DNA from: an uncultured virus (IMG/VR IMGVR_UViG_3300008952_000034)
Taxonomy: Duplodnaviria; Heunggongvirae; Uroviricota; Caudoviricetes
IMG/VR virus record: IMGVR_UViG_3300008952_000034
Coordinates: 52,663-72,662 of that record
DNA length: 20,000 bases
Strand: one strand, 5' to 3'
Part shown: in pieces, positions 1,364-14,650 of the stretch
Layout: the number at the start of each line of letters is the position of its first letter
Numbering within the stretch: the stretch's first letter is position 1
Notes under the pieces: model-generated
The model's database searches: none
What the model was told of the DNA's origin: nothing
The model's input: the letters and a program-made list of their open reading frames with translations, nothing else
Position numbers and translations under genes: made by a program

Positions 1364-2584
1364 ATGTTAATTGAAGATGTCCTATTAGAATTTAAAAGGA
1401 CTCACTTAGAACATATAGAAGATATTATTATTACAGATGGATTTGAGGGTGGTAAAGCAGTGATAGAATATTTCCGAGGATTATTACTAACACTTAAAGG
1501 TACATCATCAGAAGCAGTTTCAGTATCAGTTAAATGGGATGGTGCTCCTGCTGTGGTATGTGGTACACATCCTGAAACAGGAAAGTTCTTTGTTGCAACT
1601 AAATCAGCATTTGCTCAAAATGCCAAAGTGAATTATACTAAAAACGATATTGCAAAAAATCATGGCACAGATGATTTAGGACAAAAACTTTTAAAATGTC
1701 TTGTACACTTAAAAAAAATAAACATACAAGGAGTAGTACAGGGCGACTTATTGTTCACTGATGATGATATAACAAGAAAGAATATCGGTGGCCAACCACA
1801 TATAACATTTACACCTAACACAATTACATATGCAGTACTTGAAGATTCAGAGATTGGCAAAAGAATTGATGCCGCTAAAGTAGGAATTATATTTCATACA
1901 ACATATAATGGCGAAACACTTGCAGACATGAGTGCATCAGCAGGTGCAGATGTAGAAGCATTTGGAGTATCGCCAGATGTATTTTTCGATAATGCAACAT
2001 ACAAAGATGTATCAGGTTCTGCTAAATTTACAGCAGACGAAACAGCACAATTTTACAACAGTATTGAAAAGTTAGAAGCACTACTTAATAATATACCTCG
2101 TGACTTATCAAGTTTATTAGGACAGAACAATGACTTTGTTGGCTACTTCCAACTATATATTAATGCAATGGTCAAGCAAGGACAACTACCAACCAATGTA
2201 AATCAATTCTTGCAAGGTTTCAAACAGTTCTATATAGATAGAATGCAACAACAAATTGCAGGATTAAAAGCACAAAAGGCTTTAGCACTAAGACAAGACA
2301 AAATAAAAAATATGCCTGCATTTTTAAACAGAACCAAAAAGCCATTACAAGCGATGCTAACATTTTATAAAGCAGTACAACAAATGAAAGGCTTTATACT
2401 TAAAAAAATGAATCAAGCAATGACCATAGGATCATTTGCACAAACAGATAATGGATTAGAAGTTACAGATCCAGAAGGATTCGTTGCTGTTGACAAGGCT
2501 GGTAATGCTGTTAAACTTGTAGATAGATTAGGATTCTCAAGAAGAAACTTGACTGCTATCAAAAAATTCCAAAAAACTAATTAA
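1364..2584 (+). CDS. DUF6267-like protein with ATP-dependent ligase/covalent nucleotidyltransferase motifs
   Basis: N-terminal THLEHIED, KWDG (motif I KxDG), FFVATKS, QGDLLF (motif III-like), FTPNTITY, PEGFVA (motif IV), VKLVDR (motif V). GAGG RBS upstream. Confidence 0.7.
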   Translation: MLIEDVLLEFKRTHLEHIEDIIITDGFEGGKAVIEYFRGLLLTLKGTSSEAVSVSVKWDGAPAVVCGTHPETGKFFVATKSAFAQNAKVNYTKNDIAKNHGTDDLGQKLLKCLVHLKKINIQGVVQGDLLFTDDDITRKNIGGQPHITFTPNTITYAVLEDSEIGKRIDAAKVGIIFHTTYNGETLADMSASAGADVEAFGVSPDVFFDNATYKDVSGSAKFTADETAQFYNSIEKLEALLNNIPRDLSSLLGQNNDFVGYFQLYINAMVKQGQLPTNVNQFLQGFKQFYIDRMQQQIAGLKAQKALALRQDKIKNMPAFLNRTKKPLQAMLTFYKAVQQMKGFILKKMNQAMTIGSFAQTDNGLEVTDPEGFVAVDKAGNAVKLVDRLGFSRRNLTAIKKFQKTN

Positions 2585-3628
2585 AGTTTTATTAATTTGT
2601 TCACTTAACTTTTCTTTATTAAAAAACGTATCATAATTATGTTGTCTTAAAGCAATTGTCTGACGATATATATCGCTCCAGTCTTTTGTTTTTAAATCTT
2701 TACACAAAGAAACAATAGCATTTATTTTTTTATCTCTATCATTTTCTAAATCATATGATTCATCAAAGTAAGAACCAAATGTTTTAAAACCCATCTCTCT
2801 TAATTTTTGTAGATACAAATAATTACCATGCACAACAAATACGTGTTGAGCTATAATAGGTTTCCATATTTTTTCTGTCATAAAAACTTCGTAATCATTA
2901 TCGTTAGTTTCAGAAACTATTGAACAAACTGTATCAACATATGGTTGTTCAGTTATATCTTGATCCAGCCCCCACTTTGGATAGTCTTCTGGTTTTACCC
3001 ATGGTAGTTCATGTTCTTGTGTTAATCTAACTGGATTATCTAATCCTAAAAAAGTATATAAACTATTTGATAATATGTTTTCTTTTAACAATTTATTATA
3101 TAATTTAACTCTATGTTCTCTTGGTTGCTTATTCAAATATAAAAAATCATTTTTCTTATACCAGTAGCTACCAAAATGATCATGAGTAAATTTAAACGTA
3201 TGATTTAAATGCTTATGGTACATATAACTCCAGAACCAAGATACATCGCCAGTCCATATATGATGAGGATAAGGTATGTCTACTTCTTTCATTTTTTCAC
3301 CAGTAACAAATATTTGAGATTTTATATTATCTAACGATTCCCACGGATTAGCTAATACAAATTTAAAACCTTGTTGATGCAAAAGTTCTAATCTATTAAT
3401 TAAATCATTTTTATAACCACTATTGTCTAGAACTCTATTATTGTGTATTCTCATATCAATAAGTGCAAACTTTCTATCGTATTGTTCTAAATCATAATTG
3501 TGTAAAGTGTAATACTCTCCTGTGTATTCAAATATTTGATCAGGTATGGAATGCGTATCAATAAACTGCTCGTATGTTTGATGAGCACCTGTTTTCATTA
3601 AATCAGTTAGAAAGAAATTACGTTGCAT
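2537..3628 (-). CDS. putative glycosyltransferase (GT-B, GT10/fucosyltransferase-like C-terminal domain)
   Basis: FLYLNKQPREHR, SIVSETN..FMTEKIWKPII..FVVHG..YL..LREMGFKTF..DESYD, HNY. This pattern is typical of glycosyltransferase-like proteins of large aquatic phages. Convergent 48-nt overlap with the DUF6267-like gene. Confidence 0.55.
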   Translation of the reverse strand: MQRNFFLTDLMKTGAHQTYEQFIDTHSIPDQIFEYTGEYYTLHNYDLEQYDRKFALIDMRIHNNRVLDNSGYKNDLINRLELLHQQGFKFVLANPWESLDNIKSQIFVTGEKMKEVDIPYPHHIWTGDVSWFWSYMYHKHLNHTFKFTHDHFGSYWYKKNDFLYLNKQPREHRVKLYNKLLKENILSNSLYTFLGLDNPVRLTQEHELPWVKPEDYPKWGLDQDITEQPYVDTVCSIVSETNDNDYEVFMTEKIWKPIIAQHVFVVHGNYLYLQKLREMGFKTFGSYFDESYDLENDRDKKINAIVSLCKDLKTKDWSDIYRQTIALRQHNYDTFFNKEKLSEQINKTLISFLEFFDSSQVSS

Positions 3629-3646
3629 ATACCTATAAATATGAGT
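3629..3646. promoter_or_regulatory. 18-nt divergent intergenic spacer containing TATAAATA (candidate bidirectional late promoter)
   Basis: CAT(3626-3628)-N7-TAAATA(3636-3641)-N5-ATG(3647). Perfect T4 late consensus TATAAATA at 3634-3641. Confidence 0.6.
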
Positions 3647-4501
3647 ATGTTAACACCCTTTTTACAGTATGTATCTGAAGCAAGAATAGTAAGACGACAA
3701 AGCGACCTACAAAGATATACATTTCAGGAAATTACCGAACGTATATATCTTAGTTTTCTTACACTATCACTATTAAAAAACTTTAAACAAACAGCAGGAT
3801 TTGTCAAATCATATGGAACGAATACTCTATCATATGGTGAATTTACTAAAGTACGAGGCACAGCGAATGACCTTCATAATATGTTGGCAATAGTAGCAGG
3901 TGATCCAAGTGTAGTTGAAAAACTTGCAAATAAAAACCAAGCTATGGCACTAAGACAAAGACAGAGCGTACCAGTATTAGCAATACGAAGATACCTTAGA
4001 AGTTTTAGCAAAGACTATGAATTTTTAACACAATTAGAATCAGCACTAGGTATTAACAATATGGATTATAAAAATTTAAGAAGAGCAATTAGTGACTATC
4101 CTAGTTTAGATTCAAAAAGAAAACAATATACTGCAACAAGATTACTACAAGCACTAAAGGCTAAACTATCAGGTACTGACTTACAAAGACAAGCACAAAT
4201 ATTTGCTGACAAACAACATCTTGAATTAGATGATGTAGTAGATGCTGAACGAACAGTTCCAGGAAAAGAATTAACATCAAATGAACTAGTTGGATACAGA
4301 TTACTAGTCGGACCAAGTAATGTTAGACGTGCTAAAATTGCCGCTGATATGATACGTCAAGGTCGTGCAGTTCCTGCTCCTGTTATGTCTTCTTTCGCTC
4401 CTATAGTTAAAATGATCGATGATATAGTAAAAGGCGGTTACACATACGTTAGACTTGTACAATCTATTCATGACCGAGCAAAAACGAAGACCAAAAAATA
4501 G
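3647..4501 (+). CDS. hypothetical helical protein, putative internal virion protein (284 aa)
   Basis: Long ORF. Start moved from TTG 3623 (which overlaps the divergent gene) to ATG 3647 on promoter geometry. N-terminus MLTPFLQYVSE/A resembles a capsid-targeting propeptide. Confidence 0.7.
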   Translation: MLTPFLQYVSEARIVRRQSDLQRYTFQEITERIYLSFLTLSLLKNFKQTAGFVKSYGTNTLSYGEFTKVRGTANDLHNMLAIVAGDPSVVEKLANKNQAMALRQRQSVPVLAIRRYLRSFSKDYEFLTQLESALGINNMDYKNLRRAISDYPSLDSKRKQYTATRLLQALKAKLSGTDLQRQAQIFADKQHLELDDVVDAERTVPGKELTSNELVGYRLLVGPSNVRRAKIAADMIRQGRAVPAPVMSSFAPIVKMIDDIVKGGYTYVRLVQSIHDRAKTKTKK

Positions 4502-4619
4502 AACTTATTGTTTTAGATGTGCCTGTGATCCACATTGTGATAAAGACTGCAAAAATTGTGAAAAGTGTGATACTTGTGACTGTCCAAAATGTTTGCAGAG
4601 ATTTGCTGTAGATAGCTGA
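4470..4619 (+). CDS. 49-aa Cys-rich metallothionein-like protein (not in ORF track)
   Basis: Translates MTEQKRRPKNRTYCFRCACDPHCDKDCKNCEKCDTCDCPKCLQRFAVDS*, with 10 Cys and 1 His in 28 residues in CxC/CxxC/CxxxC spacing. It fills the gap up to the next TAAATA. Confidence 0.75.
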   Translation: MTEQKRRPKNRTYCFRCACDPHCDKDCKNCEKCDTCDCPKCLQRFAVDS

Positions 4620-4620
4620 G

Positions 4621-4626
4621 TAAATA
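4621..4626 (+). promoter_or_regulatory. late-promoter-like TAAATA, 6 nt before ATG 4633
   Basis: TAAATA-tagtac-ATG with no SD. Confidence 0.6.
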
Positions 4627-4632
4627 TAGTAC

Positions 4633-5010
4633 ATGGCAACACCAAATAACTTTAAAATAACTAATTCAATTGGAAGTACTGATAACTTTGCAGGTCCTGA
4701 CGTACAATTCTTTTATATTACATTAATAACAGCAGATGGTAGTACAGTTTTAGATGTACGTACAGAATTAGGTTACAACGAAACACTTCATAATTTACAA
4801 CGAACTATTTTACAAAGAGGTACTATATTATACCAAAGAGTTGAAAACGCCGCTACTGGTAGATTAGATATTTGTATGGAAAGACCTGGTTGGACAGCGG
4901 CAACACTTCAAACAGCAATAAGAGATATGGGTACAAGTGTTGGTACTAATACTAAAGACGTTTCTATGTCTACAGTAACCGAGACTGAACTAAAATTAGA
5001 CAACTCATAA
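4633..5010 (+). CDS. putative structural protein, paralog family copy 1
   Basis: FAGPDVQFFYI...TILQRGTIL...AATLQTAIRDM aligns by eye with the ORFs at 5740, 6187 and 6622. Confidence 0.65.
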   Translation: MATPNNFKITNSIGSTDNFAGPDVQFFYITLITADGSTVLDVRTELGYNETLHNLQRTILQRGTILYQRVENAATGRLDICMERPGWTAATLQTAIRDMGTSVGTNTKDVSMSTVTETELKLDNS

Positions 5011-5019
5011 TATCCTAAT

Positions 5020-5025
5020 TAAATA
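5020..5025 (+). promoter_or_regulatory. late-promoter-like TAAATA, 6 nt before ATG 5032
   Basis: TAAATA-acttta-ATG with no SD. Confidence 0.6.
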
Positions 5026-5031
5026 ACTTTA

Positions 5032-5643
5032 ATGTATCCTACAAATTATAGTTTTTGGGTGGCGTATAAACAACACCAATACAATCCTACCTTTCTCAAA
5101 GATGCTGGACCAGGTCAAGAACCACAAAGAGAAACTGCACTCAAATATGTAAAAAAATGGAATACTTGTATAGATGTTGGAAGTCAATTTGGTTTTTGGA
5201 CACGACCATTACTAAAAAAATTTAAAACAGTACACTGTTTTGAACCTAATCCTTTATTTCGTGAATGCTTTTTAAAAAATATACCATTAGATAATGTAAC
5301 ACTACATCCATATGGATTATCTAATAATGAACACACAGCATATCAAAGTAAAGATGGTCAAGTATTAAGTATGAAAGAAGGGTCTGTACAATGCAAAACA
5401 CTTGATAGTTTCAAATTCAGTAATGTTGATTTTATTAAAATTGATGTTGATGGTTTTGAACATCAAGTTTTAATAGGTGCAAAACAGACAATTAAAAAGT
5501 TTAATCCAGTTATAAACATCGAAATGAAAAAAATGAAAAGATCTTTAACTGTTTTTAATTGTACTAATTTTTTAAAGAAAAGAGGCTATAGAATGGCCAA
5601 ACGAGTCAAATCCGACGAGGTATGGGTTAAAAAAGTAATATAA
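5032..5643 (+). CDS. FkbM-family methyltransferase
   Basis: IDVGSQFG, VHCFEPNP, LHPYGLS, TLDSF..VDFIKIDVDGFEHQVLIGA..TI..FNPVINIE. Confidence 0.9.
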   Translation: MYPTNYSFWVAYKQHQYNPTFLKDAGPGQEPQRETALKYVKKWNTCIDVGSQFGFWTRPLLKKFKTVHCFEPNPLFRECFLKNIPLDNVTLHPYGLSNNEHTAYQSKDGQVLSMKEGSVQCKTLDSFKFSNVDFIKIDVDGFEHQVLIGAKQTIKKFNPVINIEMKKMKRSLTVFNCTNFLKKRGYRMAKRVKSDEVWVKKVI

Positions 5644-5668
5644 CTACTAAATTTACCAAACCATTTAC

Positions 5669-5702
5669 TAAATAGAAACATACAGTCACCTGAGCGGTGA
5701 CT
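5669..5702 (+). promoter_or_regulatory. TAAATA promoter followed by a 5'-leader stem-loop
   Basis: TAAATA 5669-5674, then a perfect 7-bp stem AGTCACC(5684-5690)-TGAGC-GGTGACT(5696-5702). No U-tract, so not a terminator. AGGAGG at 5727-5732. Confidence 0.65.
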
Positions 5703-5739: not shown

Positions 5740-6159
5740 ATGGCATACGACAGCACAATACCAGCAGGCGGTCCAGGAAACTTTGTATCACCAAATCTTG
5801 CTATAGAGCATGAAGGGGTAAGAGTTGACTTTATCACTGTTGATTATATAAATGCGATGAACGGTGAGGTAACACACTCATTAGCATCGGCAAACACAGC
5901 GGGTCTTAAATTAGCTATAGAAGCAATCCAAAACCAAGGAGTAAACGTCCTAGGTTCAGGTGCTTTAGGTAATTCAAACACTGAACAAACTTACATGGTA
6001 AGAGCGGACAGTTTAGACACGATTAGTTCAACTACAACGGTAGCGGCAATCCAAACGGCAATTAGAGGATTGGACGCCCTAACACCTGACAAAGTAACAG
6101 CAACTATATCTTCAGCAACAGCGGCTGACAGAGATATGTCTGATACTCAGGTAGCATAA
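5740..6159 (+). CDS. putative abundant structural protein, paralog family copy 2
   Basis: AGGAGG SD; Ala/Thr/Ser-rich; HEGVRVDFITVDY...IQNQGVNVLGSGALGNSNTEQTY...VAAIQTAIRGL. Confidence 0.7.
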   Translation: MAYDSTIPAGGPGNFVSPNLAIEHEGVRVDFITVDYINAMNGEVTHSLASANTAGLKLAIEAIQNQGVNVLGSGALGNSNTEQTYMVRADSLDTISSTTTVAAIQTAIRGLDALTPDKVTATISSATAADRDMSDTQVA

Positions 6160-6186: not shown

Positions 6187-6600
6187 ATGGCTTATACAGG
6201 ATCAAGTGTTGCAGGTGGAGAAGGTAACGCAACTTTTCATGCAACAAGTAAATTAGATTTCTTAGGCAAAGAACTAGAAATCTTCACTGTTGACTTTGTT
6301 GACGACATGAGTGGACAAACAGCAAAAGACGCTGACCAGTACACTGCGGAACTTACTATAAGAAATTATGGTAATATCGTAGGTGCAGGCCCACTACATA
6401 ACTCAGACACAGAAAAAACTTACATTTCTGAAGGTACTGATATGTATGTTGGGTCACCAGCAAGTGCAGGTGGAACATTCACGTTTACTGAAACAACAGC
6501 ATCAAGTTCAACAGCAACCCTACAAACAGCTCTTAGAGCAGTTTCGGGACAAAACGCATCAACAACAGCGACTAACAAGACGCTAGTAATTGGTACGTAA
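6187..6600 (+). CDS. putative abundant structural protein, paralog family copy 3
   Basis: AGGAGG SD 6173-6178; FLGKELEIFTVDF...IRNYGNIVGAGPLHNSDTEKTY...TATLQTALRAV. Confidence 0.7.
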   Translation: MAYTGSSVAGGEGNATFHATSKLDFLGKELEIFTVDFVDDMSGQTAKDADQYTAELTIRNYGNIVGAGPLHNSDTEKTYISEGTDMYVGSPASAGGTFTFTETTASSSTATLQTALRAVSGQNASTTATNKTLVIGT

Positions 6601-6621: not shown

Positions 6622-7164
6622 ATGCCAGCAACAAGTAACAATACAGGCATTATGTCTAGAAGACAATCTTTCAATGGTAAAGGTTTAACTTTCATTGAAA
6701 TGATCTTTGATGACGAAATAGCAACAACGGCTTCTAGTCCTGACACTAAAGACAGTGCTTTTGAAATTTGCAGTGAAATCATCCAAGAAAAAGGAACTTT
6801 ACTAGCAAAATCTTATTCATTAGGAAACAAATGTACTGAAAAAGATGCGGCGACGGCGGCTTCAATGACTGAAGACGAATTAATCGACGTATACACTTTC
6901 ATAGTAGAGGGAACACCAGGTCAGTATAATACTGCAGACTCGGCTGGAGACATTAACATGGATCCAGGTCAAGCAGACAGTTCTGACCCAGGCGTTATTG
7001 CAGATGCAGAAGCAGACATTGAAACAGAAATTCTAGCTAGACTTTCTGAAAACGACTCTGCGGCATCAGTTCACGTTGACGTTAGATATCTTCCAGCAGA
7101 TGGAGTTACATCAGCAGGTGAAGAAATCATATACGGTGTGAACAGTGCTAGAGTTAATGGTTAA
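6622..7164 (+). CDS. putative abundant structural protein, paralog family copy 4 (acidic, more diverged)
   Basis: AGGAGG SD 6608-6613; FNGKGLTFIEMIF...IQEKGTLLAKSYSLGNKCTEK...YTFIVEG. Confidence 0.65.
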   Translation: MPATSNNTGIMSRRQSFNGKGLTFIEMIFDDEIATTASSPDTKDSAFEICSEIIQEKGTLLAKSYSLGNKCTEKDAATAASMTEDELIDVYTFIVEGTPGQYNTADSAGDINMDPGQADSSDPGVIADAEADIETEILARLSENDSAASVHVDVRYLPADGVTSAGEEIIYGVNSARVNG

Positions 7165-7191
7165 TAATTAACTACTAGAAATTAAATTACC

Positions 7192-7224
7192 AAAAGGGCG
7201 GATCTTTTTTAGGTTCGCCCTTTT
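7192..7224. terminator. intrinsic, probably bidirectional, terminator
   Basis: AAAAGGGCG-GATCT-TTTTT-AGGTT-CGCCCTTTT: 9 perfect bp extended by 5 bp with two G.U pairs, and A/T tracts on both sides. Lies directly after the paralog operon. Confidence 0.85.
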
Positions 7225-10953: not shown

Positions 10954-11373
10954 ATGAATAATAACCTTCGGCAGGTGGATCTTGTATCAACAACGAAAGG
11001 TTTGTTGAACCTTCATCAATTTTGGAACAAACCTATTGTGGTATTCAACAGTGCATCTTTCTGTGGCTTTACTAATCAGTTGTCCGCTTTTGAAGAACTG
11101 CACAAGACAGGCAAAGTAATACCTATTGCCCTGCCAACAAATGAATTTGGTGCCCAAGAACCTGGACACTCTCTAGAAATCAATCAACACTACTGTAAGA
11201 AATACAACGTGACATATCCAATAATGGACAAGACAGATCTAGAACATAAATTTTTTAAAACTTTTGGCATACCAGACTGGAACTTCAATAAATGGTTATT
11301 TGATTCTAAACACAATTTTGTTAAGAAGTTTAACAGTAGAACCCAACCAATGAAAATGCTTGAATATGTCTGA
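10954..11373 (+). CDS. gpx: glutathione peroxidase-family protein (Cys-type, probably thioredoxin-dependent)
   Basis: All three GPx signatures: NSASFCGFTNQ, PTNEFGAQEPG, WNFNKWL. The second Cys in INQHYCKKYNVTYP sits at the resolving-Cys position. Confidence 0.9.
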   Translation: MNNNLRQVDLVSTTKGLLNLHQFWNKPIVVFNSASFCGFTNQLSAFEELHKTGKVIPIALPTNEFGAQEPGHSLEINQHYCKKYNVTYPIMDKTDLEHKFFKTFGIPDWNFNKWLFDSKHNFVKKFNSRTQPMKMLEYV

Positions 11374-12634
11374 TACATTTTGCACTTATCCGTTTAAACA
11401 TCTCTACATAGAAACCAATGGACGACAGAAGTTGTGTTGTATGCCTAACGAGTTCATAGAAAAGAATGATGGATACAGACAGTACCAAATGAAGGATGGG
11501 ATCTTTTCTAGTTGGAACAGCGACTACATGAAAGACACAAGGTTGAAAATGCTTAACGGACAAAAAGTTAGTGCCTGTGAAAAATGTTACTTACTAGAAT
11601 CTCATGGACAAAAAAGTTTAAGGCAAAACGGCGGACGAGGTAAGCCGGAATGGTTTAAAGATGATATAGAGTCCAATGGCACTATGAAGACCATGCCGAC
11701 TGATATAGAACTGCACTTTGGAAACGTCTGCAACTTGAAATGTAGGATGTGCAGTCATTATTTCTCACACATGATCGGCAAAGAGCTGTTGGCTGTGCAA
11801 CAAGATGATCCAGATTTTTTCCGTTGGATACAGGAGCAAGGAGGCAACGTTAATAATTGGGCCACTGGAGATTTGACAGAAGTCTATGACTGGTACAAGG
11901 ACAAGTCTGTATTAGAAAACACGTTTGAAGAAATATACAATCATGTACAAAGTATAAGAGTGATTGGTGGAGAACCAACAATTATTCCTGAGTTCTGGCA
12001 GATGTTCAAATATCTCAAATCCAAGAACAGTCTCAAAGACAAGTTTATAAAAATCACCACAAACGGTACTAACACAAATCCAAAGATGACCGAATGGTTT
12101 GCTGAAATGAAAGGTGTAGAGATTATGATAAGTCTCGACGGACTTGATCTTAGAAACAGGTATATCAGGTACCCATCAAACTGGCAGGCAATAATGAAGA
12201 ACATTAGAGAATACAAAGCAATCGCAAACCTACATCCATCTGTGAGACCATTTGTGGCACCAACGCCACAAATATTAAATGTAGATCAATTAACTGATTT
12301 CTGTATATTCTTCGAGAACGAAGAAGTCGCCGTTGGAATAAATCCAGATGTTGTCAGTCCCAAGATATGTAATTTTAATTATTTCCCAATGGAGTATAAA
12401 AAGATTGTAGTTGATAAATTGAACACTAACCTCGCAAAGGTCAAAAACAACACCAACAGAACACACATTGAAAACACTATTAAAGTCCTACAGCAAGATT
12501 TCAATAAACAAGAAATAGATCAAAACATAAGAAACTTTGTCAAATACAACGATTACATGGATAAGTTTAGAAACACAGATTCATGGAGAGACTTGTTACC
12601 AGAACTTGCAGAAGTTATAGAAAAAAGATTATAG
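11366..12634 (+). CDS. radical SAM protein with N-terminal twitch/SPASM Fe-S domain
   Basis: FCTYPF...G...LCC...WNS..MK..R..ML.G....CEKC (twitch), GNVCNLKCRMC (CxxxCxxC), GGEP, TTNGT, ISLDG, YIRYP..W. ATG 11366 overlaps the end of gpx. Confidence 0.9.
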   Translation: MSDTFCTYPFKHLYIETNGRQKLCCMPNEFIEKNDGYRQYQMKDGIFSSWNSDYMKDTRLKMLNGQKVSACEKCYLLESHGQKSLRQNGGRGKPEWFKDDIESNGTMKTMPTDIELHFGNVCNLKCRMCSHYFSHMIGKELLAVQQDDPDFFRWIQEQGGNVNNWATGDLTEVYDWYKDKSVLENTFEEIYNHVQSIRVIGGEPTIIPEFWQMFKYLKSKNSLKDKFIKITTNGTNTNPKMTEWFAEMKGVEIMISLDGLDLRNRYIRYPSNWQAIMKNIREYKAIANLHPSVRPFVAPTPQILNVDQLTDFCIFFENEEVAVGINPDVVSPKICNFNYFPMEYKKIVVDKLNTNLAKVKNNTNRTHIENTIKVLQQDFNKQEIDQNIRNFVKYNDYMDKFRNTDSWRDLLPELAEVIEKRL

Positions 12635-13927
12635 GTCTTTAACAATATCGTATATCTGTGGATAAACTTTCTTCCAGTTAGTACCTCTCCTACGATCTAA
12701 CTCTGTCAAATAGATTTTCAGTTGTTTTTGTCTTATAAGACTAGGTTCTCTATTTTCAAACTCAATCATATTACCTTCCATAAATTTTTTATGATTTACC
12801 TTAACTGAATCTGGGTAACCATAAGAATTAGTATCAAACAACTCTATTGCTTCTTGTAATCCCCATTCGTTAATTTTTTTACCAAATATTCCAGGATACA
12901 AATAAGGCTTAGGCCCAATATCATGCTGGTTTGCTTTCATCATACTCCAATACACAGGTCTAATCTTTGACCAGTTGTTAATCATTTTAACCATTTCAGG
13001 CATACCTGATACTGCTGTCACTGTTAATGCAGAATTTATTCCTTGTAACGTTTCTGTTTCATTTAACACATATTCAAAATTCTTTTGCAATAATGGTAAG
13101 TTAATTCCAGTACGCACATACTCTCCTGCAGGTCCCCAAGCATCACATGATGCAATAATCTGTAGTTTATCTAATCTACCTTGCTTAACCATTTTATCTA
13201 ATCTACTAACCCACATTTTATATCTATCGTGTTCTACATTATGATTACTAAAAAAGCATAAAGTTAAATCAGGCAGTTCCCTTTTCTCTAAAAACTCTAT
13301 AAATCTAAATGTTTCTTTTTGTAAAAATGGTTCTCCTCCTAATACAAAAACTTTATGTAATTTGTGTATATTATTTTCAAACCATTTAAACAATAATTCT
13401 GTATGCTCTTCTATCTTAGGATTCTTTTTCCACCATGGACTTATATCAACTCCTTCTTTATTAAAGTCTCCAAATTTTTCTTCTTCTTGTTGTATTTGTG
13501 AACTAAAATGAGCACCACAATAGATACATTTTTGATTACAAGTATTTCCCCAATACACTTCTAATTGCCTTGGAGTAACATCAACTGCTTCTAAATCATT
13601 ATCCAACTCCGGTGGAGCAGTAGTACCTTCCAAGTGTAGATGTATTTGTCTGTCACTAGTTCCACCAGCTTCTTCAATGTGTTTACAGTGTTCACAACCA
13701 CGTCCTGGCCATTCACCTTTTAACATTTTACGTCTTGCTTCTAACTTGGCCGGTAAGTTATGAAAATTTAATTCACCATTACGTATTTCTAATGGATCTC
13801 CCTGTACTCTGTGACAACTTGCACTTACTCCATCCGTAAGATATACTGTGGAATGTGTCCACTTTAACTGACATGGTAATCCTTTTTTAATAGGAAACGG
13901 TTTTGGTGGTTGCTTTGATATACCCAT
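12629..13927 (-). CDS. radical SAM protein with N-terminal twitch-like domain
   Basis: CQLKW...SCHRV...FHN..K...RRKMLKG..PGRGCEHC, GNTCNQKCIYC, LGGEPF, EYVRTG. Start reassigned to ATG 13927 (MGISKQ) to avoid overlapping the divergent gene. Stop codons overlap those of the convergent radical SAM gene (TTATAG). Confidence 0.88.
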   Translation of the reverse strand: MGISKQPPKPFPIKKGLPCQLKWTHSTVYLTDGVSASCHRVQGDPLEIRNGELNFHNLPAKLEARRKMLKGEWPGRGCEHCKHIEEAGGTSDRQIHLHLEGTTAPPELDNDLEAVDVTPRQLEVYWGNTCNQKCIYCGAHFSSQIQQEEEKFGDFNKEGVDISPWWKKNPKIEEHTELLFKWFENNIHKLHKVFVLGGEPFLQKETFRFIEFLEKRELPDLTLCFFSNHNVEHDRYKMWVSRLDKMVKQGRLDKLQIIASCDAWGPAGEYVRTGINLPLLQKNFEYVLNETETLQGINSALTVTAVSGMPEMVKMINNWSKIRPVYWSMMKANQHDIGPKPYLYPGIFGKKINEWGLQEAIELFDTNSYGYPDSVKVNHKKFMEGNMIEFENREPSLIRQKQLKIYLTELDRRRGTNWKKVYPQIYDIVKDL

Positions 13928-13945
13928 TTGTATATAATTATGTAT
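13928..13945. promoter_or_regulatory. 18-nt divergent spacer with palindromic ATAATTAT (candidate bidirectional promoter)
   Basis: CAT(13925-13927)-N7-TAATTA(13935-13940)-N5-ATG(13946). Same geometry as 3629-3646. Confidence 0.6.
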
Positions 13946-14650
13946 ATGAAAATCTCCGAAGATGTTCTTAAAAGCAAAGGTATAGCATATATACAAAAAT
14001 TTCCATACAATGAATTGTCTAAAACATCTAAAAATGGTAAAAGATATTACTCTACTCCAGATGGTAGAACAGTACCTTCTGTGACCACAGTGTTATCTGC
14101 TACTAAAGACATGACACAATTACACGCATGGCGTAAAAGAGTTGGTGAAGCAAGAGCACAACAAATTACAACAGAGTCAGCTAACATTGGAACAGTGATG
14201 CACGGCTCATTAGAAAAACACGTAAAAGGTATTGAAAGAAAACCTGGGTCAAATCTTATACATCAAAAAGCACACGCAATGGCAAATGTTATTATTGATA
14301 ATGGATTAAAAAATGTTAGTGAAGTATGGGGATCAGAAGTATCATTACACTACCCAGAATTATATGCAGGAACAACTGACTTGGTTGGTGTATATAAAGG
14401 TGAACCGGCTATAATGGATTTCAAACAAGCACGTAAATTAAAAAAGAAAGAATGGGTAGAAGATTACTATCTTCAATTGGTTGCATATTCTGAAGCACAT
14501 AATAAACAATACGACACGCAAATTAAATCAGGTAGAGTCTTTATATGCACACAAAACAACGAATTTCAAACATTTGATATAGACAACTATGACCATTGGG
14601 TAGGACAATGGTATAGTAAATTGGAACAATACTACAAGTCTATCCTTTAA
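13946..14650 (+). CDS. PD-(D/E)XK exonuclease (RecB/MGME1-like phage exonuclease)
   Basis: RYY.TPDG...PSVTTVL, WRKRVG, GT.MH..LE, E..L, YAGTTDLV, IMDFK, YYLQLVAY. Confidence 0.88.
   Translation: MKISEDVLKSKGIAYIQKFPYNELSKTSKNGKRYYSTPDGRTVPSVTTVLSATKDMTQLHAWRKRVGEARAQQITTESANIGTVMHGSLEKHVKGIERKPGSNLIHQKAHAMANVIIDNGLKNVSEVWGSEVSLHYPELYAGTTDLVGVYKGEPAIMDFKQARKLKKKEWVEDYYLQLVAYSEAHNKQYDTQIKSGRVFICTQNNEFQTFDIDNYDHWVGQWYSKLEQYYKSIL

What the first reader, a model, noticed from the sequence alone, without database searches (positions are those of the whole stretch)
4470..4619. Unannotated phage metallothionein-like microprotein (10 Cys in 49 aa)
Seen: an ORF below the track's size cut-off encodes MTEQKRRPKNRTYCFRCACDPHCDKDCKNCEKCDTCDCPKCLQRFAVDS. 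It has a basic N-terminus and then CxxCxCxxHCxxxCxxCxxCxxCxCxxC. It overlaps the upstream gene by 32 nt and stops 1 nt before the next TAAATA. Ten in-frame Cys codons in 28 are hard to get by chance in such AT-rich DNA. Known: bacterial metallothioneins (SmtA/BmtA, MymT) are short Cys/His-rich Zn/Cu binders often missed by gene callers. Inference: a phage metal buffer or chaperone, or a Cys-rich peptide substrate for the SPASM/twitch radical SAM enzymes in this window (ranthipeptide/sactipeptide-type maturases act on Cys-rich precursors).
Basis: partly seen in the sequence, partly recalled or inferred. Interest (0 to 1): 0.8.

Follow-up and report, generated by a model that had tools for sequence, protein, structure and literature searches.

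The report
Conserved phage ten-cysteine metal-cluster microprotein
A 49-residue gene missed by gene callers is real and conserved in a group of uncultivated ocean phages; it encodes a new, tiny ten-cysteine, one-histidine module that almost certainly folds around several metal ions, but it is not a relative of known metallothioneins and is unlikely to be a peptide-antibiotic precursor.

Summary
The ORF at 4470-4619 (+) is exactly as described: 49 aa, with 10 Cys and 1 His inside 28 residues. No shuffle of the window reaches that density. It is a real gene. Related loci give 68 distinct cores plus 13 cores of a paralogous second unit, all keeping the 11 ligand positions. dN/dS is 0.09-0.32, and both Cys codons occur in every Cys column. 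It is accessory: close relatives lack it cleanly. It sits almost always directly after one conserved 292-aa gene. It was not found in 185,579 prokaryote species genomes. No Pfam, NCBIfam or PHROG family matches it, metallothioneins included, and the model resembles no solved fold. The only weak sequence likeness is to CCHC zinc knuckles. Non-ligand residues are nearly invariant too, which points to a defined multi-zinc fold (probably 3 Zn) rather than a loose metal sponge. It is usually free-standing, sometimes tandem-duplicated, and in two lineages fused to the N-terminus of the neighbouring FkbM methyltransferase. The radical-SAM substrate idea is disfavoured. Some homologues have only 4 residues before the first Cys. 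The twitch rSAMs lie 6.7-9.4 kb away, fall far below every peptide-maturase cut-off, and occur in relatives that lack this gene. Function stays unproven, and a metallothionein-like role is not excluded.

The parts
4470..4619 (+). Microprotein gene (49 codons + TGA), the finding itself
   Evidence: Translation. Homologues. dN/dS 0.09-0.32. Codon position 3 varies about twice as much as positions 1 and 2.
4509..4592 (+). 28-residue core C-x2-C-x-C-x2-H-C-x3-C-x2-C-x2-C-x2-C-x-C-x2-C (residues 14-41): 10 Cys + 1 His, the putative metal-cluster module
   Evidence: Core located. 68 distinct unit-1 cores and 13 unit-2 cores carry the pattern. Among the 63 unit-1 cores of 28 aa, core position 2 is aromatic or His in 63/63, R3 in 62/63, N16 in 63/63 and D24 in 61/63.
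4470..4501 (+). 32-nt overlap of the microprotein's start with the 3' end of the upstream gene (+1 frame); no Shine-Dalgarno sequence here
   Evidence: In relatives where the gene does not overlap (L082, L086, L087) AAGGAG lies 6-7 nt before its ATG.
3623..4501 (+). Conserved 292-aa gene of unknown function ('up') that the microprotein gene follows
   Evidence: It is the upstream neighbour in 68 of 70 evaluable non-redundant loci. No Pfam, PHROG or NCBIfam hit. Distant homologue in Agrobacterium jumbo phage Atu_ph07, annotated hypothetical.
4621..4626 (+). TAAATA motif 6 nt before the ATG of the next gene; a recurrent gene-start motif in this phage
   Evidence: The same motif lies 5-8 nt before the ATGs at 1062, 4633, 5032, 9714 and 19006. 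It also lies before the second Cys-rich unit in L089 and L091.
4633..5010 (+). 125-aa gene ('dn'), the commonest downstream neighbour
   Evidence: It is the first downstream ORF in 40 of the non-redundant loci. No family hit.
5032..5643 (+). FkbM-family methyltransferase; in two other lineages the Cys module is fused to its N-terminus
   Evidence: PF05050 at 7.6e-15. TIGR01444 at 68.2 bits against a cut-off of 37.7. Fusions: L018 3848-4573, P0012/P0016/P0017 and P0018/P0019.

Best explanation
ORF 4470-4619 is a genuine accessory gene of a group of uncultivated phages. The same family turns up in ocean metagenome scaffolds.

Its product is a 49-aa protein whose 28-residue core is a self-contained metal-thiolate module of a previously undescribed family. 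Ten Cys and one His sit at fixed spacing, with an aromatic or His residue and an Arg after the first Cys, plus an invariant Asn and Asp.

Inferred mechanism: the peptide has no hydrophobic core and folds only around metal ions, most probably three Zn(II).
- Site 1 is an N-terminal knuckle-like site (C14, C17, H22 plus C23 or C27).
- Site 2 is a C-terminal C33/C36/C38/C41 site.
- Site 3 is a middle site using C19, C27/C23 and C30 plus one shared thiolate. A natural variant has lost exactly this site.

The gene is translated from its own start codon, coupled to the gene upstream.

The rigid conservation of non-ligand residues suggests a small zinc-stabilised binding module for a protein or nucleic-acid partner rather than a bulk metal sponge. 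One candidate partner is the FkbM-type methyltransferase of the same locus, to whose N-terminus the module is fused in two lineages.

Shown: the coding status, the conservation, the distribution, the fusions and the lack of homology to known families. Inferred: the metal identity and stoichiometry, the adaptor role and the partner.
For: Reality of the gene.
- On the part of the gene that does not overlap the upstream gene, all 10 Cys and the His are invariant in 8 distinct viral-contig homologues, and dN/dS is 0.09-0.32 with dS often saturated.
- In 22 distinct core DNAs, every Cys column uses both TGT and TGC. Codon position 3 differs 0.51 per site against 0.30 and 0.25 for positions 1 and 2.
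- 78 of 80 metagenome loci carry the strict core as a 38-60-aa ORF or a 79-83-aa tandem ORF.
- Its own AAGGAG lies 6-7 nt before the ATG where the gene does not overlap its neighbour.

Defined fold rather than loose Cys-richness.
- Among 63 unit-1 cores of 28 aa, core position 2 is F/H/Y/W in 63/63, R3 in 62/63, N16 in 63/63, D24 in 61/63 and P8 in 53/63.
- AlphaFold2 with 32 sequences gives pLDDT about 80 over the core, with no regular secondary structure in residues 1-38 and a helix at 39-47.

Three-site reading.
- Variant P0004 (5 member sequences, 9 contigs) lacks C19, C27 and C30 together but keeps the other 7 Cys and the His.
- The spacing C-x2-C-x4-H-x4-C with an aromatic residue after the first Cys equals the CCHC knuckle pattern.
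- 13 of the 18 weak PDB profile hits are CCHC knuckles (best E 0.019).
- 2 of the 13 hits in the search of 1.84 billion representatives are CCHC arrays.

Module behaviour.
- A paralogous second unit lies next to the first in several loci and is fused in tandem in L088, L099, L164, L171 and L172.
- Two independent N-terminal fusions to FkbM methyltransferases exist, each seen as 2-3 sequence variants from different sources.
- In L082 and L086 the microprotein's stop overlaps the methyltransferase's start.
- P0024, which shares a 90%-identity cluster with the fused form P0018, lacks exactly the Cys module.
Against: - No metal measurement exists. Zn, the three-site scheme and the binding role are all inference.
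- The CCHC likeness is marginal (E about 0.02). Pfam zf-CCHC is not matched at E<=10, and part of the second-unit paralogues lacks that spacing.
- Eleven ligands is also the ligand count recalled for the four-metal clusters of SmtA and of the mammalian alpha-domain, so a metallothionein-like Zn4 cluster fits equally well.
- Tandem duplication is typical of metallothioneins.
- The tie to the methyltransferase is weak. Among non-redundant loci with enough flank, 14 with the module have a methyltransferase within 1.5 kb and 10 do not, against 12 and 18 without the module.
- The contigs G002, G006 and G008, which hold the module, show no methyltransferase, though all are fragments.
- The free-standing form is by far the commonest.
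- The protein is only mildly basic, and in many homologues the N-terminal basic tail is 3-5 residues long. This argues against a nucleocapsid-like nucleic-acid binder.
Confidence: 0.55

Rival explanations
1. A true metallothionein in function: a free cytosolic metal-thiolate cluster protein (Zn4-type or Cu(I)/Cd) that buffers, stores or steals metal in the infected cell, evolved independently of the known metallothionein families.
For: - It is small (49 aa), with 20% Cys overall and 36% in the core, and has CxC and CxxC motifs.
- Residues between the Cys are polar, and the model shows no secondary structure in the core.
- It has 11 ligands. SmtA binds 4 Zn (PMC10612145, passages read). That SmtA does so through 9 Cys and 2 His is recalled and comes from no call.
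- It is free-standing in nearly all loci, and tandem two-unit forms exist.
- Bacterial metallothionein ORFs are known to be overlooked by annotation (PMC3323870, passages read).
- It is an accessory gene, as an environment-dependent helper function would be.
Against: - No sequence match to any Pfam or NCBIfam metallothionein model or to any solved metallothionein.
- Strict conservation of non-ligand residues is unusual for a sponge.
- Two persistent fusions to an enzyme are unusual for a metallothionein.
- There is no metal-homeostasis gene beside it. Its neighbours are structural-like late genes and methyltransferases.
Confidence: 0.22
2. A small Fe-S protein: an electron donor or cluster carrier for the phage's many radical SAM enzymes.
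For: - The window carries two radical SAM genes, and a related contig (G004) gives nine matches to one of them.
- Marine phage genomes rich in radical SAM and Fe-S assembly genes are described in PMC5332604 (passages read).
- C27-x2-C30-x2-C33 followed by C38-P39 faintly recalls the ferredoxin motif.
Against: - The ferredoxin spacing CxxCxxCxxxCP is not met, and the Pro is present in only 24 of 63 cores.
- The residues around the Cys are charged or polar, with no hydrophobic shield.
- A 28-residue module is too small to bury cubane clusters (inference).
- No ferredoxin family hit.
- Radical SAM relatives occur in contigs that lack the module.
Confidence: 0.08
3. A ribosomally made precursor peptide that the window's twitch radical SAM enzymes crosslink (ranthipeptide/sactipeptide-like).
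For: - It is a Cys-rich short peptide in a genome with two radical SAM enzymes that carry an auxiliary-cluster (twitch) domain.
- Weak partial matches of one enzyme to PapB and CcpM models.
Against: - The enzymes start 6.7 kb (11360) and end 9.4 kb (13996) downstream, with a dozen genes between.
- Both pass NF033640 (314.7 and 216.1 bits, cut-off 170). They are far below the cut-offs of PapB (38.7 against 340), CcpM (31.6 against 500) and the other maturases.
- Relatives of the enzyme occur in G003 and G004, which lack the peptide in what is held.
- Homologues such as L084 begin MREKC, so only 4 residues precede the first Cys and there is no leader.
- The module is fused to the N-terminus of a methyltransferase in two lineages.
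- The invariant His, Asn and Asp fit metal binding better.
Confidence: 0.04
4. A disulfide-knotted mini-protein (five disulfides) that becomes stable outside the cell, for instance on the virion.
For: An even number of Cys (10). It lies in a region with virion-structural PHROG hits. One member gives a weak Pfam hit to scytovirin, a five-disulfide lectin (E 0.013; also 2jmv).
Against: - No signal peptide is apparent by eye in the sequence (no predictor was run). The protein would be made in a reducing cytoplasm (inference).
- The invariant His next to a Cys and the CxxC/CxC spacing are typical metal-ligand patterns.
- The second-unit paralogues have 11-12 Cys.
- The scytovirin hits are composition-level and are seen in 1 of 11 members.
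Confidence: 0.05
5. Not a gene: a chance open frame, or the shadow of a gene on the other strand.
For: No Shine-Dalgarno sequence before the ATG in the window. It overlaps its neighbour by 32 nt. Minus-strand ORFs of 56 and 46 aa cover the same DNA.
Against: The shuffles never reach this Cys density. dN/dS is well below 1 and the third position is the most variable. The antisense frames are broken in 6-8 of 22 homologues. There are more than 100 loci with the intact frame, and the gene has its own AAGGAG in the non-overlapping arrangements.
Confidence: 0.01

Closest known systems
Bacterial metallothioneins SmtA/BmtA (Pfam PF02069)
   Same: A small Cys/His-rich cytosolic protein that gene callers easily miss. 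The total ligand count of 11 equals that recalled for SmtA's Zn4 cluster. SmtA binds 4 Zn (PMC10612145) and contains a zinc-finger-like element (PMC3323870).
   Different: No detectable sequence similarity. The Cys spacing is different. There is one His instead of two or three. There is no evidence of the SmtA beta-hairpin/helix zinc-finger fold. It is phage-borne, lies beside structural-like genes, and is sometimes fused to a methyltransferase.
CCHC zinc knuckle (retroviral nucleocapsid type, Pfam PF00098)
   Same: Residues 14-27 have exactly C-x2-C-x4-H-x4-C with an aromatic residue after the first Cys and a basic residue next to it. The only weak sequence hits in PDB and among 1.84 billion representatives are knuckle proteins.
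   Different: Hits are marginal (best E 0.019) and Pfam's model is not matched. Two extra invariant Cys are interleaved in the knuckle and five more follow it. Variant P0004 drops the knuckle's fourth ligand. Some second-unit paralogues lack the spacing. The protein is not strongly basic.
Multi-zinc Cys clusters attached to methyltransferases (pre-SET/CXC Zn3Cys9 domains of SET-domain enzymes; recalled, not tested)
   Same: A short Cys-dense segment ending in C-x-C-x2-C, thought here to hold about three Zn with shared thiolates. In two lineages it sits directly N-terminal to a methyltransferase domain.
   Different: The partner enzyme is a class I FkbM-type methyltransferase, not a SET domain. 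No sequence or fold match was found. The module is usually a separate protein.
SCIFF/ranthipeptide precursors of radical SAM-SPASM maturases
   Same: A short peptide of about 45 aa with many Cys, in a genome that encodes radical SAM enzymes with an auxiliary-cluster domain.
   Different: It is not adjacent to the enzymes and has no leader peptide. The enzymes fall in another family (NF033640), it does not co-occur with them, and it exists as an enzyme-fused domain.

Membership tests
Bacterial metallothionein BmtA/SmtA (PF02069) | Sequence match to the family model | tested here: not met
   hmmscan of 11 members against Pfam-A at E<=10 gave no metallothionein family. NCBIfam gave nothing. No metallothionein among the 18 PDB profile hits at E<=10.
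Bacterial metallothionein BmtA/SmtA (PF02069) | Zinc-finger fold (beta-hairpin plus helix, conserved Tyr and Ala) enclosing site A, as described in PMC3323870 | tested here: inconclusive
   The AlphaFold2 model (pLDDT 72) shows no strands in residues 1-38 and one helix at 39-47. No structural match in PDB. The model's confidence is only moderate.
Metallothioneins in the operational sense (small, Cys-rich, metal-thiolate clusters) | Low mass, high Cys content, CxC/CxxC motifs, few aromatic residues | tested here: met
   49 aa; 10 Cys (20% overall, 36% of the core); CxC twice and CxxC repeatedly; 3 aromatic residues, one of them in the core.
Metallothioneins in the operational sense (small, Cys-rich, metal-thiolate clusters) | Binds several metal ions in thiolate clusters; labile, buffering behaviour | not testable with these tools
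   Needs ICP-MS, native MS and chelator competition on the recombinant protein.
CCHC zinc knuckle (PF00098) | C-x2-C-x4-H-x4-C spacing with an aromatic residue after the first Cys | tested here: met
   C, C, H and C are at core positions 1, 4, 9 and 14 by construction of the search pattern; position 2 is F/H/Y/W in 63 of 63 unit-1 cores of 28 aa. Not kept in 4-5 second-unit cores (CxCxCxHHC form) or in P0004.
CCHC zinc knuckle (PF00098) | Significant match to the family model | tested here: not met
   No PF00098 hit at E<=10 for 11 members. The best PDB knuckle hit has E 0.019, with single-stretch E above 1.
RiPP precursor of a radical SAM/SPASM maturase (SCIFF, ranthipeptide, sactipeptide) | Encoded next to its maturase | tested here: not met
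   The nearest radical SAM gene starts at 11360, 6.7 kb downstream, with a dozen ORFs between. In 78 non-redundant loci no first downstream ORF matched a radical SAM gene; the references used were dn, methyltransferases and paralogues, and 2 were 'other'.
RiPP precursor of a radical SAM/SPASM maturase (SCIFF, ranthipeptide, sactipeptide) | Leader (or follower) peptide for recognition, plus a core | tested here: not met
   Homologues begin MREKC, MTKEKC or MKKEKC, leaving 4-6 residues before the first Cys. Several end 3-4 residues after the last Cys.
RiPP precursor of a radical SAM/SPASM maturase (SCIFF, ranthipeptide, sactipeptide) | The accompanying enzyme belongs to a peptide-maturase family | tested here: not met
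   Both enzymes pass NF033640 N_Twi_rSAM (314.7 and 216.1 bits, cut-off 170). PapB scores 38.7 against 340, CcpM 31.6 against 500, RumMC 18.8 against 720.
2[4Fe-4S] ferredoxin | CxxCxxCxxxCP motif(s) | tested here: not met
   The spacing is CxxCxxCxxCxC, and Pro follows in only 24 of 63 cores. No ferredoxin family hit.

The most novel reading that the evidence does not exclude
This is the first virus-encoded metallothionein-type protein family. It is a 28-residue Cys10His module, evolved independently of cellular metallothioneins, that packs three or four Zn (or Cd/Cu) ions. Ocean phages would use it, singly, doubled or bolted onto an enzyme, to capture and redistribute scarce metal in the infected cell. 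In the bolder form, the zinc-knuckle half also targets the FkbM methyltransferase to its (nucleic-acid or glycan-bearing) substrate.
Probability: 0.25. Interest if true: 0.75.

Novelty: new variant of a known kind. Interest (0 to 1): 0.58.

Why it matters
Microproteins below gene-caller cut-offs are a blind spot of phage genomics. Here one of them proves to be a widespread, strongly selected family, with more than 100 loci in viral and metagenome contigs and no match in 185,579 prokaryote species genomes at the sensitivity of the pattern scan.

Its architecture is unusually dense: 11 metal-ligand residues in 28. It matches no protein family and no solved fold. If it binds three or four metal ions it would be among the smallest natural multi-metal domains. 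It would also be the first metallothionein-like protein known from a virus; the three literature searches for such a thing found none.

This bears on how phages handle trace metals in metal-poor seawater. The recurrent fusion to an FkbM methyltransferase gives a concrete, testable lead to the function of both proteins.

Tried and rejected
- **Complex prediction.** The microprotein (alignment A2) was folded with the window's FkbM methyltransferase (A3), 3 Zn and SAM. The result was 'no answer' (score 0.00, the partner's own fold uncertain). It counts neither for nor against binding.
- **First AlphaFold2 run.** With 11 sequences the model reached pLDDT 58 and was unusable.
- **Fold searches on the second model.** Foldseek against PDB gave one row at E 9.5 (PML B-box). 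VIA-align against 48,161 chains gave none with Z>=2. For a 49-residue irregular model this does not prove a new fold.
- **ESM Atlas.** For the microprotein the best scores were 0.85-0.86 to unnamed clusters, below the useful range. For the upstream gene there was no usable hit.
- **tblastn of the microprotein against 50,697 GenBank phage records.** No match. The low-complexity filter may have masked it.
- **blastn of 3600-5700 against the same collection.** No match.
- **Search for longer proteins carrying the module.** The word index found none. The fusion P0012 came from the profile search instead.
- **Function of the upstream 292-aa gene.** No PDB sequence match (best E 0.92). Its Atu_ph07 homologue and that gene's neighbours are annotated hypothetical.
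- **Programmed +1 frameshift extending the upstream protein into the Cys frame.** Considered and rejected. The module has its own ATG or GTG everywhere. In L082, L084, L086, L087, L089 and L091 it starts at or after the neighbour's stop, with its own AAGGAG in three of these loci.
- **Methyltransferase as an obligate partner.** Rejected. The 14/10 against 12/18 co-occurrence table shows no exclusive link.
- **RNA evidence.** Only small shares of the stretch were found in public runs. One contig of an RNA-seq run (X5, record 15, 90-95% alike) covers 4436-4613, nearly the whole ORF. Contigs of an RNA library can hold DNA and this is a relative, so it is no more than a hint of transcription.
Full report
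**1.

- It overlaps the 292-codon upstream ORF (3623-4501) by 32 nt.
- Its TGA is followed by G and then TAAATA at 4621-4626. The next gene starts at 4633.

The Cys density is far beyond chance for this 33.8% G+C DNA.
- Among the window's 156 six-frame ORFs of 40 aa or more, the runner-up has 7 Cys in 28 residues.
- In 300 shuffles of the window the best value was 4-8, with 8 reached once.
- In 100,000 shuffles of the ORF's own bases, in-frame Cys codons averaged 1.25 and never exceeded 7.

**2. It is a real, selected gene**

The window is part of a 72.7-kb viral record, G000. The record carries these phage genes:
- ribonucleotide reductase;
- DUF6267;
- a tail-spike-like protein;
- PHROG 'virion structural' proteins;
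- two methyltransferases;
- a glutathione-peroxidase-like gene;
- two radical SAM genes.

Using the upstream gene as bait, 70 IMG/VR loci were fetched. The microprotein is present in 13 of them, giving 8 distinct sequences.

On the part that does not overlap the upstream gene:
- all ten Cys and the His are invariant;
- pairwise dN/dS is 0.09-0.32 wherever dS is not saturated;
- TGT/TGC swaps occur in 8 of 10 Cys columns.

Over 22 distinct core DNAs:
- every Cys column uses both codons;
- codon position 3 differs at 0.51 per site, against 0.30 and 0.25 for positions 1 and 2;
- this is the only frame open in all 22, because the antisense frames are broken in 6-8 of 22.

Direct searches with the protein added further members.
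- The word-index search found 3 small proteins.
- The profile search of 1.84 billion representatives found 13 proteins at E<=0.001. Nine are 38-57-aa family members and one is a 255-aa fusion. Two are eukaryote-type CCHC-knuckle arrays and one is an unrelated repeat protein.
- The IMG/VR scan found 30 loci.
- The metagenome scan found 91 relatives, of which 80 were kept.

Of those 80 metagenome loci, 78 carry the strict core as an ORF of 38-60 aa or as a two-unit ORF of 79-83 aa. The two exceptions are a contig end (L143) and one locus with Val in place of the first Cys (L178).

In all there are 68 distinct unit-1 cores and 13 distinct cores of a paralogous second unit.

A scan of one genome for each of 185,579 prokaryote species gave a single 18-residue weak hit. 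At that sensitivity the family is phage-only.

**3. Anatomy and context**

The core signature is C-x(1,2)-C-x-C-x2-H-C-x(3,4)-C-x2-C-x2-C-x2-C-x-C-x2-C.

Non-ligand residues are also nearly fixed in the 63 unit-1 cores of 28 aa:

| Core position | Residue | Count |
|---|---|---|
| 2 | F/H/Y/W | 63/63 |
| 3 | Arg | 62/63 |
| 8 | Pro | 53/63 |
| 16 | Asn | 63/63 |
| 24 | Asp | 61/63 |

The flanks are free to vary.
- The N-terminus before the first Cys ranges from 4 residues (MREKC) to about 25.
- The C-terminal tail is LQRFAVDG in many members, but only 3-4 residues in others.

The gene is accessory. In L009/L010 and L023-L025 the upstream and downstream genes abut with a gap of about 25-31 nt. 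L009 keeps the first ten codons (MTEQEQKLED...) and lacks the Cys core cleanly.

Position is very constant across 78 non-redundant loci:
- the gene ending just before the module is the 292-aa gene in 68 of 70 evaluable cases;
- the first gene after it is the 125-aa 'dn' gene in 40;
- it is an FkbM methyltransferase in 9, plus 2 of a second methyltransferase type;
- it is a member of a paralogous family of small SD-led proteins in 7.

Where the module does not overlap its neighbour, a canonical AAGGAG lies 6-7 nt before its ATG (L082, L086, L087). In the window there is no such site, and translation is presumably coupled to the upstream gene (inference).

A second Cys-rich unit, for example MIKCVCECGCEHHCKGSCAECRDCPDCMCKCCKEEQKS in L089, lies directly behind the first in several loci. 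It is fused with the first into one ORF in L088, L099, L164, L171 and L172.

**4. The methyltransferase fusions**

In L018 the module is the N-terminus of a 241-aa FkbM methyltransferase. The same fused protein exists as two variants, P0018 and P0019, from different sources.

A second, independent fusion of 255 aa has a different linker and a divergent enzyme. It exists as three variants (P0012, P0016, P0017) on four contigs.

P0024 shares a 90%-identity cluster with P0018. It reads MLEQKTKNNNFWVMY..., which is the same enzyme with exactly the Cys module missing.

In L082 and L086 the microprotein's stop overlaps the methyltransferase's start. A very small deletion could therefore create such a fusion (inference).

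The fusions show that linking the module to this enzyme is tolerated and has persisted. The general association is weak, however.
- Among non-redundant loci with enough flank, 14 with the module have the enzyme within 1.5 kb and 10 do not. Without the module the figures are 12 and 18.
- Three module-bearing contigs of 36-84 kb show no such enzyme. All three are fragments.
- None of 32 cultured-phage records with a related methyltransferase covers the module part.

**5. What it is not**

- **No family match.** Pfam at E<=10 was scanned with 11 members; the only hits were one member to scytovirin at 0.013 and one to a zinc ribbon at 7.3. PHROGs and NCBIfam gave nothing.
- **No metallothionein match.** None of the 18 PDB chains found by the profile at E<=10 is a metallothionein. 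Thirteen are CCHC zinc knuckles (best E 0.019), three are nuclear-receptor zinc fingers, one is scytovirin and one is an SBP domain.
- **No fold match.** The second AlphaFold2 model (32 sequences, mean pLDDT 72, about 80 in the core) has no regular secondary structure in residues 1-38 and a helix at 39-47. Neither Foldseek nor VIA-align finds a similar solved chain.
- **Unlikely to be a radical SAM substrate.**
  - Both enzymes belong to NF033640, the N-terminal-twitch radical SAM subfamily. They score an order of magnitude below the cut-offs of PapB, CcpM, RumMC and other maturases.
  - They lie 6.7-9.4 kb away.
  - Relatives of the enzyme are present in G003 (E 7e-97) and G004 (nine matches), where the module is absent from what is held.
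  - There is no leader peptide.
  - The module can be an enzyme's N-terminal domain.

**6. How it most likely works**

A 28-residue segment with 11 invariant thiolate or imidazole side chains, polar residues between them and no hydrophobic core can only be held together by metal ions. This follows from established knowledge of zinc fingers and metallothioneins.

The natural variant P0004 (5 member sequences, 9 contigs) lacks C19, C27 and C30 together and keeps the other eight ligands. This fits two independent four-ligand sites plus a third site built from the three lost Cys and one shared thiolate. That makes three Zn in the standard form (inference).

Residues 14-27 have the CCHC-knuckle spacing, with the aromatic and basic residues in the places known from nucleocapsid knuckles (pattern shown; homology not shown).

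The near-invariance of Arg, Asn, Asp, Pro and the aromatic position argues for one rigid fold with a specific surface. That means a small zinc-stabilised binding module. The methyltransferase fusions name one plausible partner. The constant upstream gene and the frequent downstream gene are others.

My confidence by level of claim:

| Claim | Confidence |
|---|---|
| Real gene | about 0.97 |
| Metal-cluster domain | about 0.85 |
| Zn with about three sites | about 0.6 |
| Structured binding module rather than buffer | about 0.5 |
| The methyltransferase as its partner | about 0.25 |

**7. The metallothionein reading stays open**

- Size, Cys content and motifs fit.
- The ligand count of 11 equals that recalled for the four-metal clusters of SmtA and the mammalian alpha-domain. 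SmtA's four Zn are confirmed in PMC10612145 (passages read). The Cys9His2 composition is from recall.
- Tandem duplication is metallothionein-like.
- The gene's accessory status would suit an environment-dependent helper.

Three literature searches found no paper describing a virus- or phage-encoded metallothionein: 'metallothionein' with 'phage-encoded'; 'metallothionein' with 'bacteriophage genome' and 'cysteine-rich'; and four exact phrases. The library covers open-access papers and bioRxiv only.

**8. Verdict**

This is a new family of phage microproteins with an exceptionally dense Cys10His metal-ligand core. It is not homologous to known metallothioneins, is probably a structured multi-zinc module, and is very unlikely to be a radical-SAM-modified peptide. 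The function remains to be shown at the bench.

Noticed in passing
window 1051, 4621, 5020, 9703, 18992 (also L089:~4117, L091:~4120): The hexamer TAAATA (usually T/C/G-TAAATA) lies 5-8 nt before the ATG of several genes: 1062, 4633, 5032, 9714, 19006. In relatives it lies before the second Cys-rich unit. It resembles the T4-type late promoter core (recalled) but sits so close to the start codons that transcripts would be nearly leaderless. Other genes (5740, 6187, 6622) have strong AGGAGG sites instead.
   Followed up: partly
window 11360-12634 (+) and 12629-13996 (-): Two radical SAM genes of the N-terminal-twitch subfamily NF033640 converge and overlap by 6 nt at their 3' ends. The related 172-kb contig G004 gives nine matches to one of them. 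Their substrate is unknown. The first overlaps the end of a glutathione-peroxidase-like gene, 10954-11373.
   Followed up: partly
window 5740-6159, 6187-6600, 6622-7164 (and 4633-5010): A run of small genes with strong Shine-Dalgarno sites. 5740-6159 and 6187-6600 are paralogues (35% identity, E 4e-11). The 125-aa gene 4633-5010 shares only an ...ATLQTAIR... motif with them (E 0.045). Related loci carry 114-145-aa versions in varying numbers. They are probably abundant late or virion proteins; no family hit.
   Followed up: partly
L089:4133-4249, L091:4136-4252, L088:2304-2420, L099:2341-2442 and others: A second, paralogous Cys-rich microprotein (38-44 aa, 11-12 Cys, often HH before the fifth Cys). 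It is absent from the window but adjacent to, or fused with, the first unit in many relatives.
   Followed up: yes
L011:3848-4480, L030:3797-4468, P0024: Whatever gene follows the 292-aa gene tends to begin in the same overlapping +1 frame with M-[TPL]-E-Q-K/N... This holds even for a methyltransferase without the Cys module. The start is encoded inside the conserved 3' end of the upstream gene and is reused by different downstream genes.
   Followed up: partly
window 3623-4501: The conserved 292-aa protein has a distant homologue (28.5% over 175 residues, E 7e-12) in the 490-kb Agrobacterium jumbo phage Atu_ph07, annotated hypothetical. The window's FkbM methyltransferase type also occurs in Caulobacter jumbo phages of about 310 kb and in Pelagibacter phage Mosig. 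CheckV rates related contigs of 84-172 kb as only 20-47% complete, so this may be a very large phage of a marine alphaproteobacterium.
   Followed up: no
window 7165-7222: The spacer before the TTG at 7223 holds a G+C-rich inverted repeat around a T run (aagggcggatcttttttaggttcgccctt). It looks like a terminator closing the block of small SD-led genes.
   Followed up: no
window 2537-3628 (-): The only long minus-strand gene in the first 12 kb (363 aa) has no Pfam, PHROG or NCBIfam hit. It overlaps the ends of its two plus-strand neighbours, 1364-2584 and 3623-4501.
   Followed up: no
window 4436-4613: One contig of a seawater RNA-seq run (X5, record 15; 186 nt, 90-95% alike) covers almost exactly the microprotein ORF of a relative. 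It is a hint of transcription at most.
   Followed up: partly
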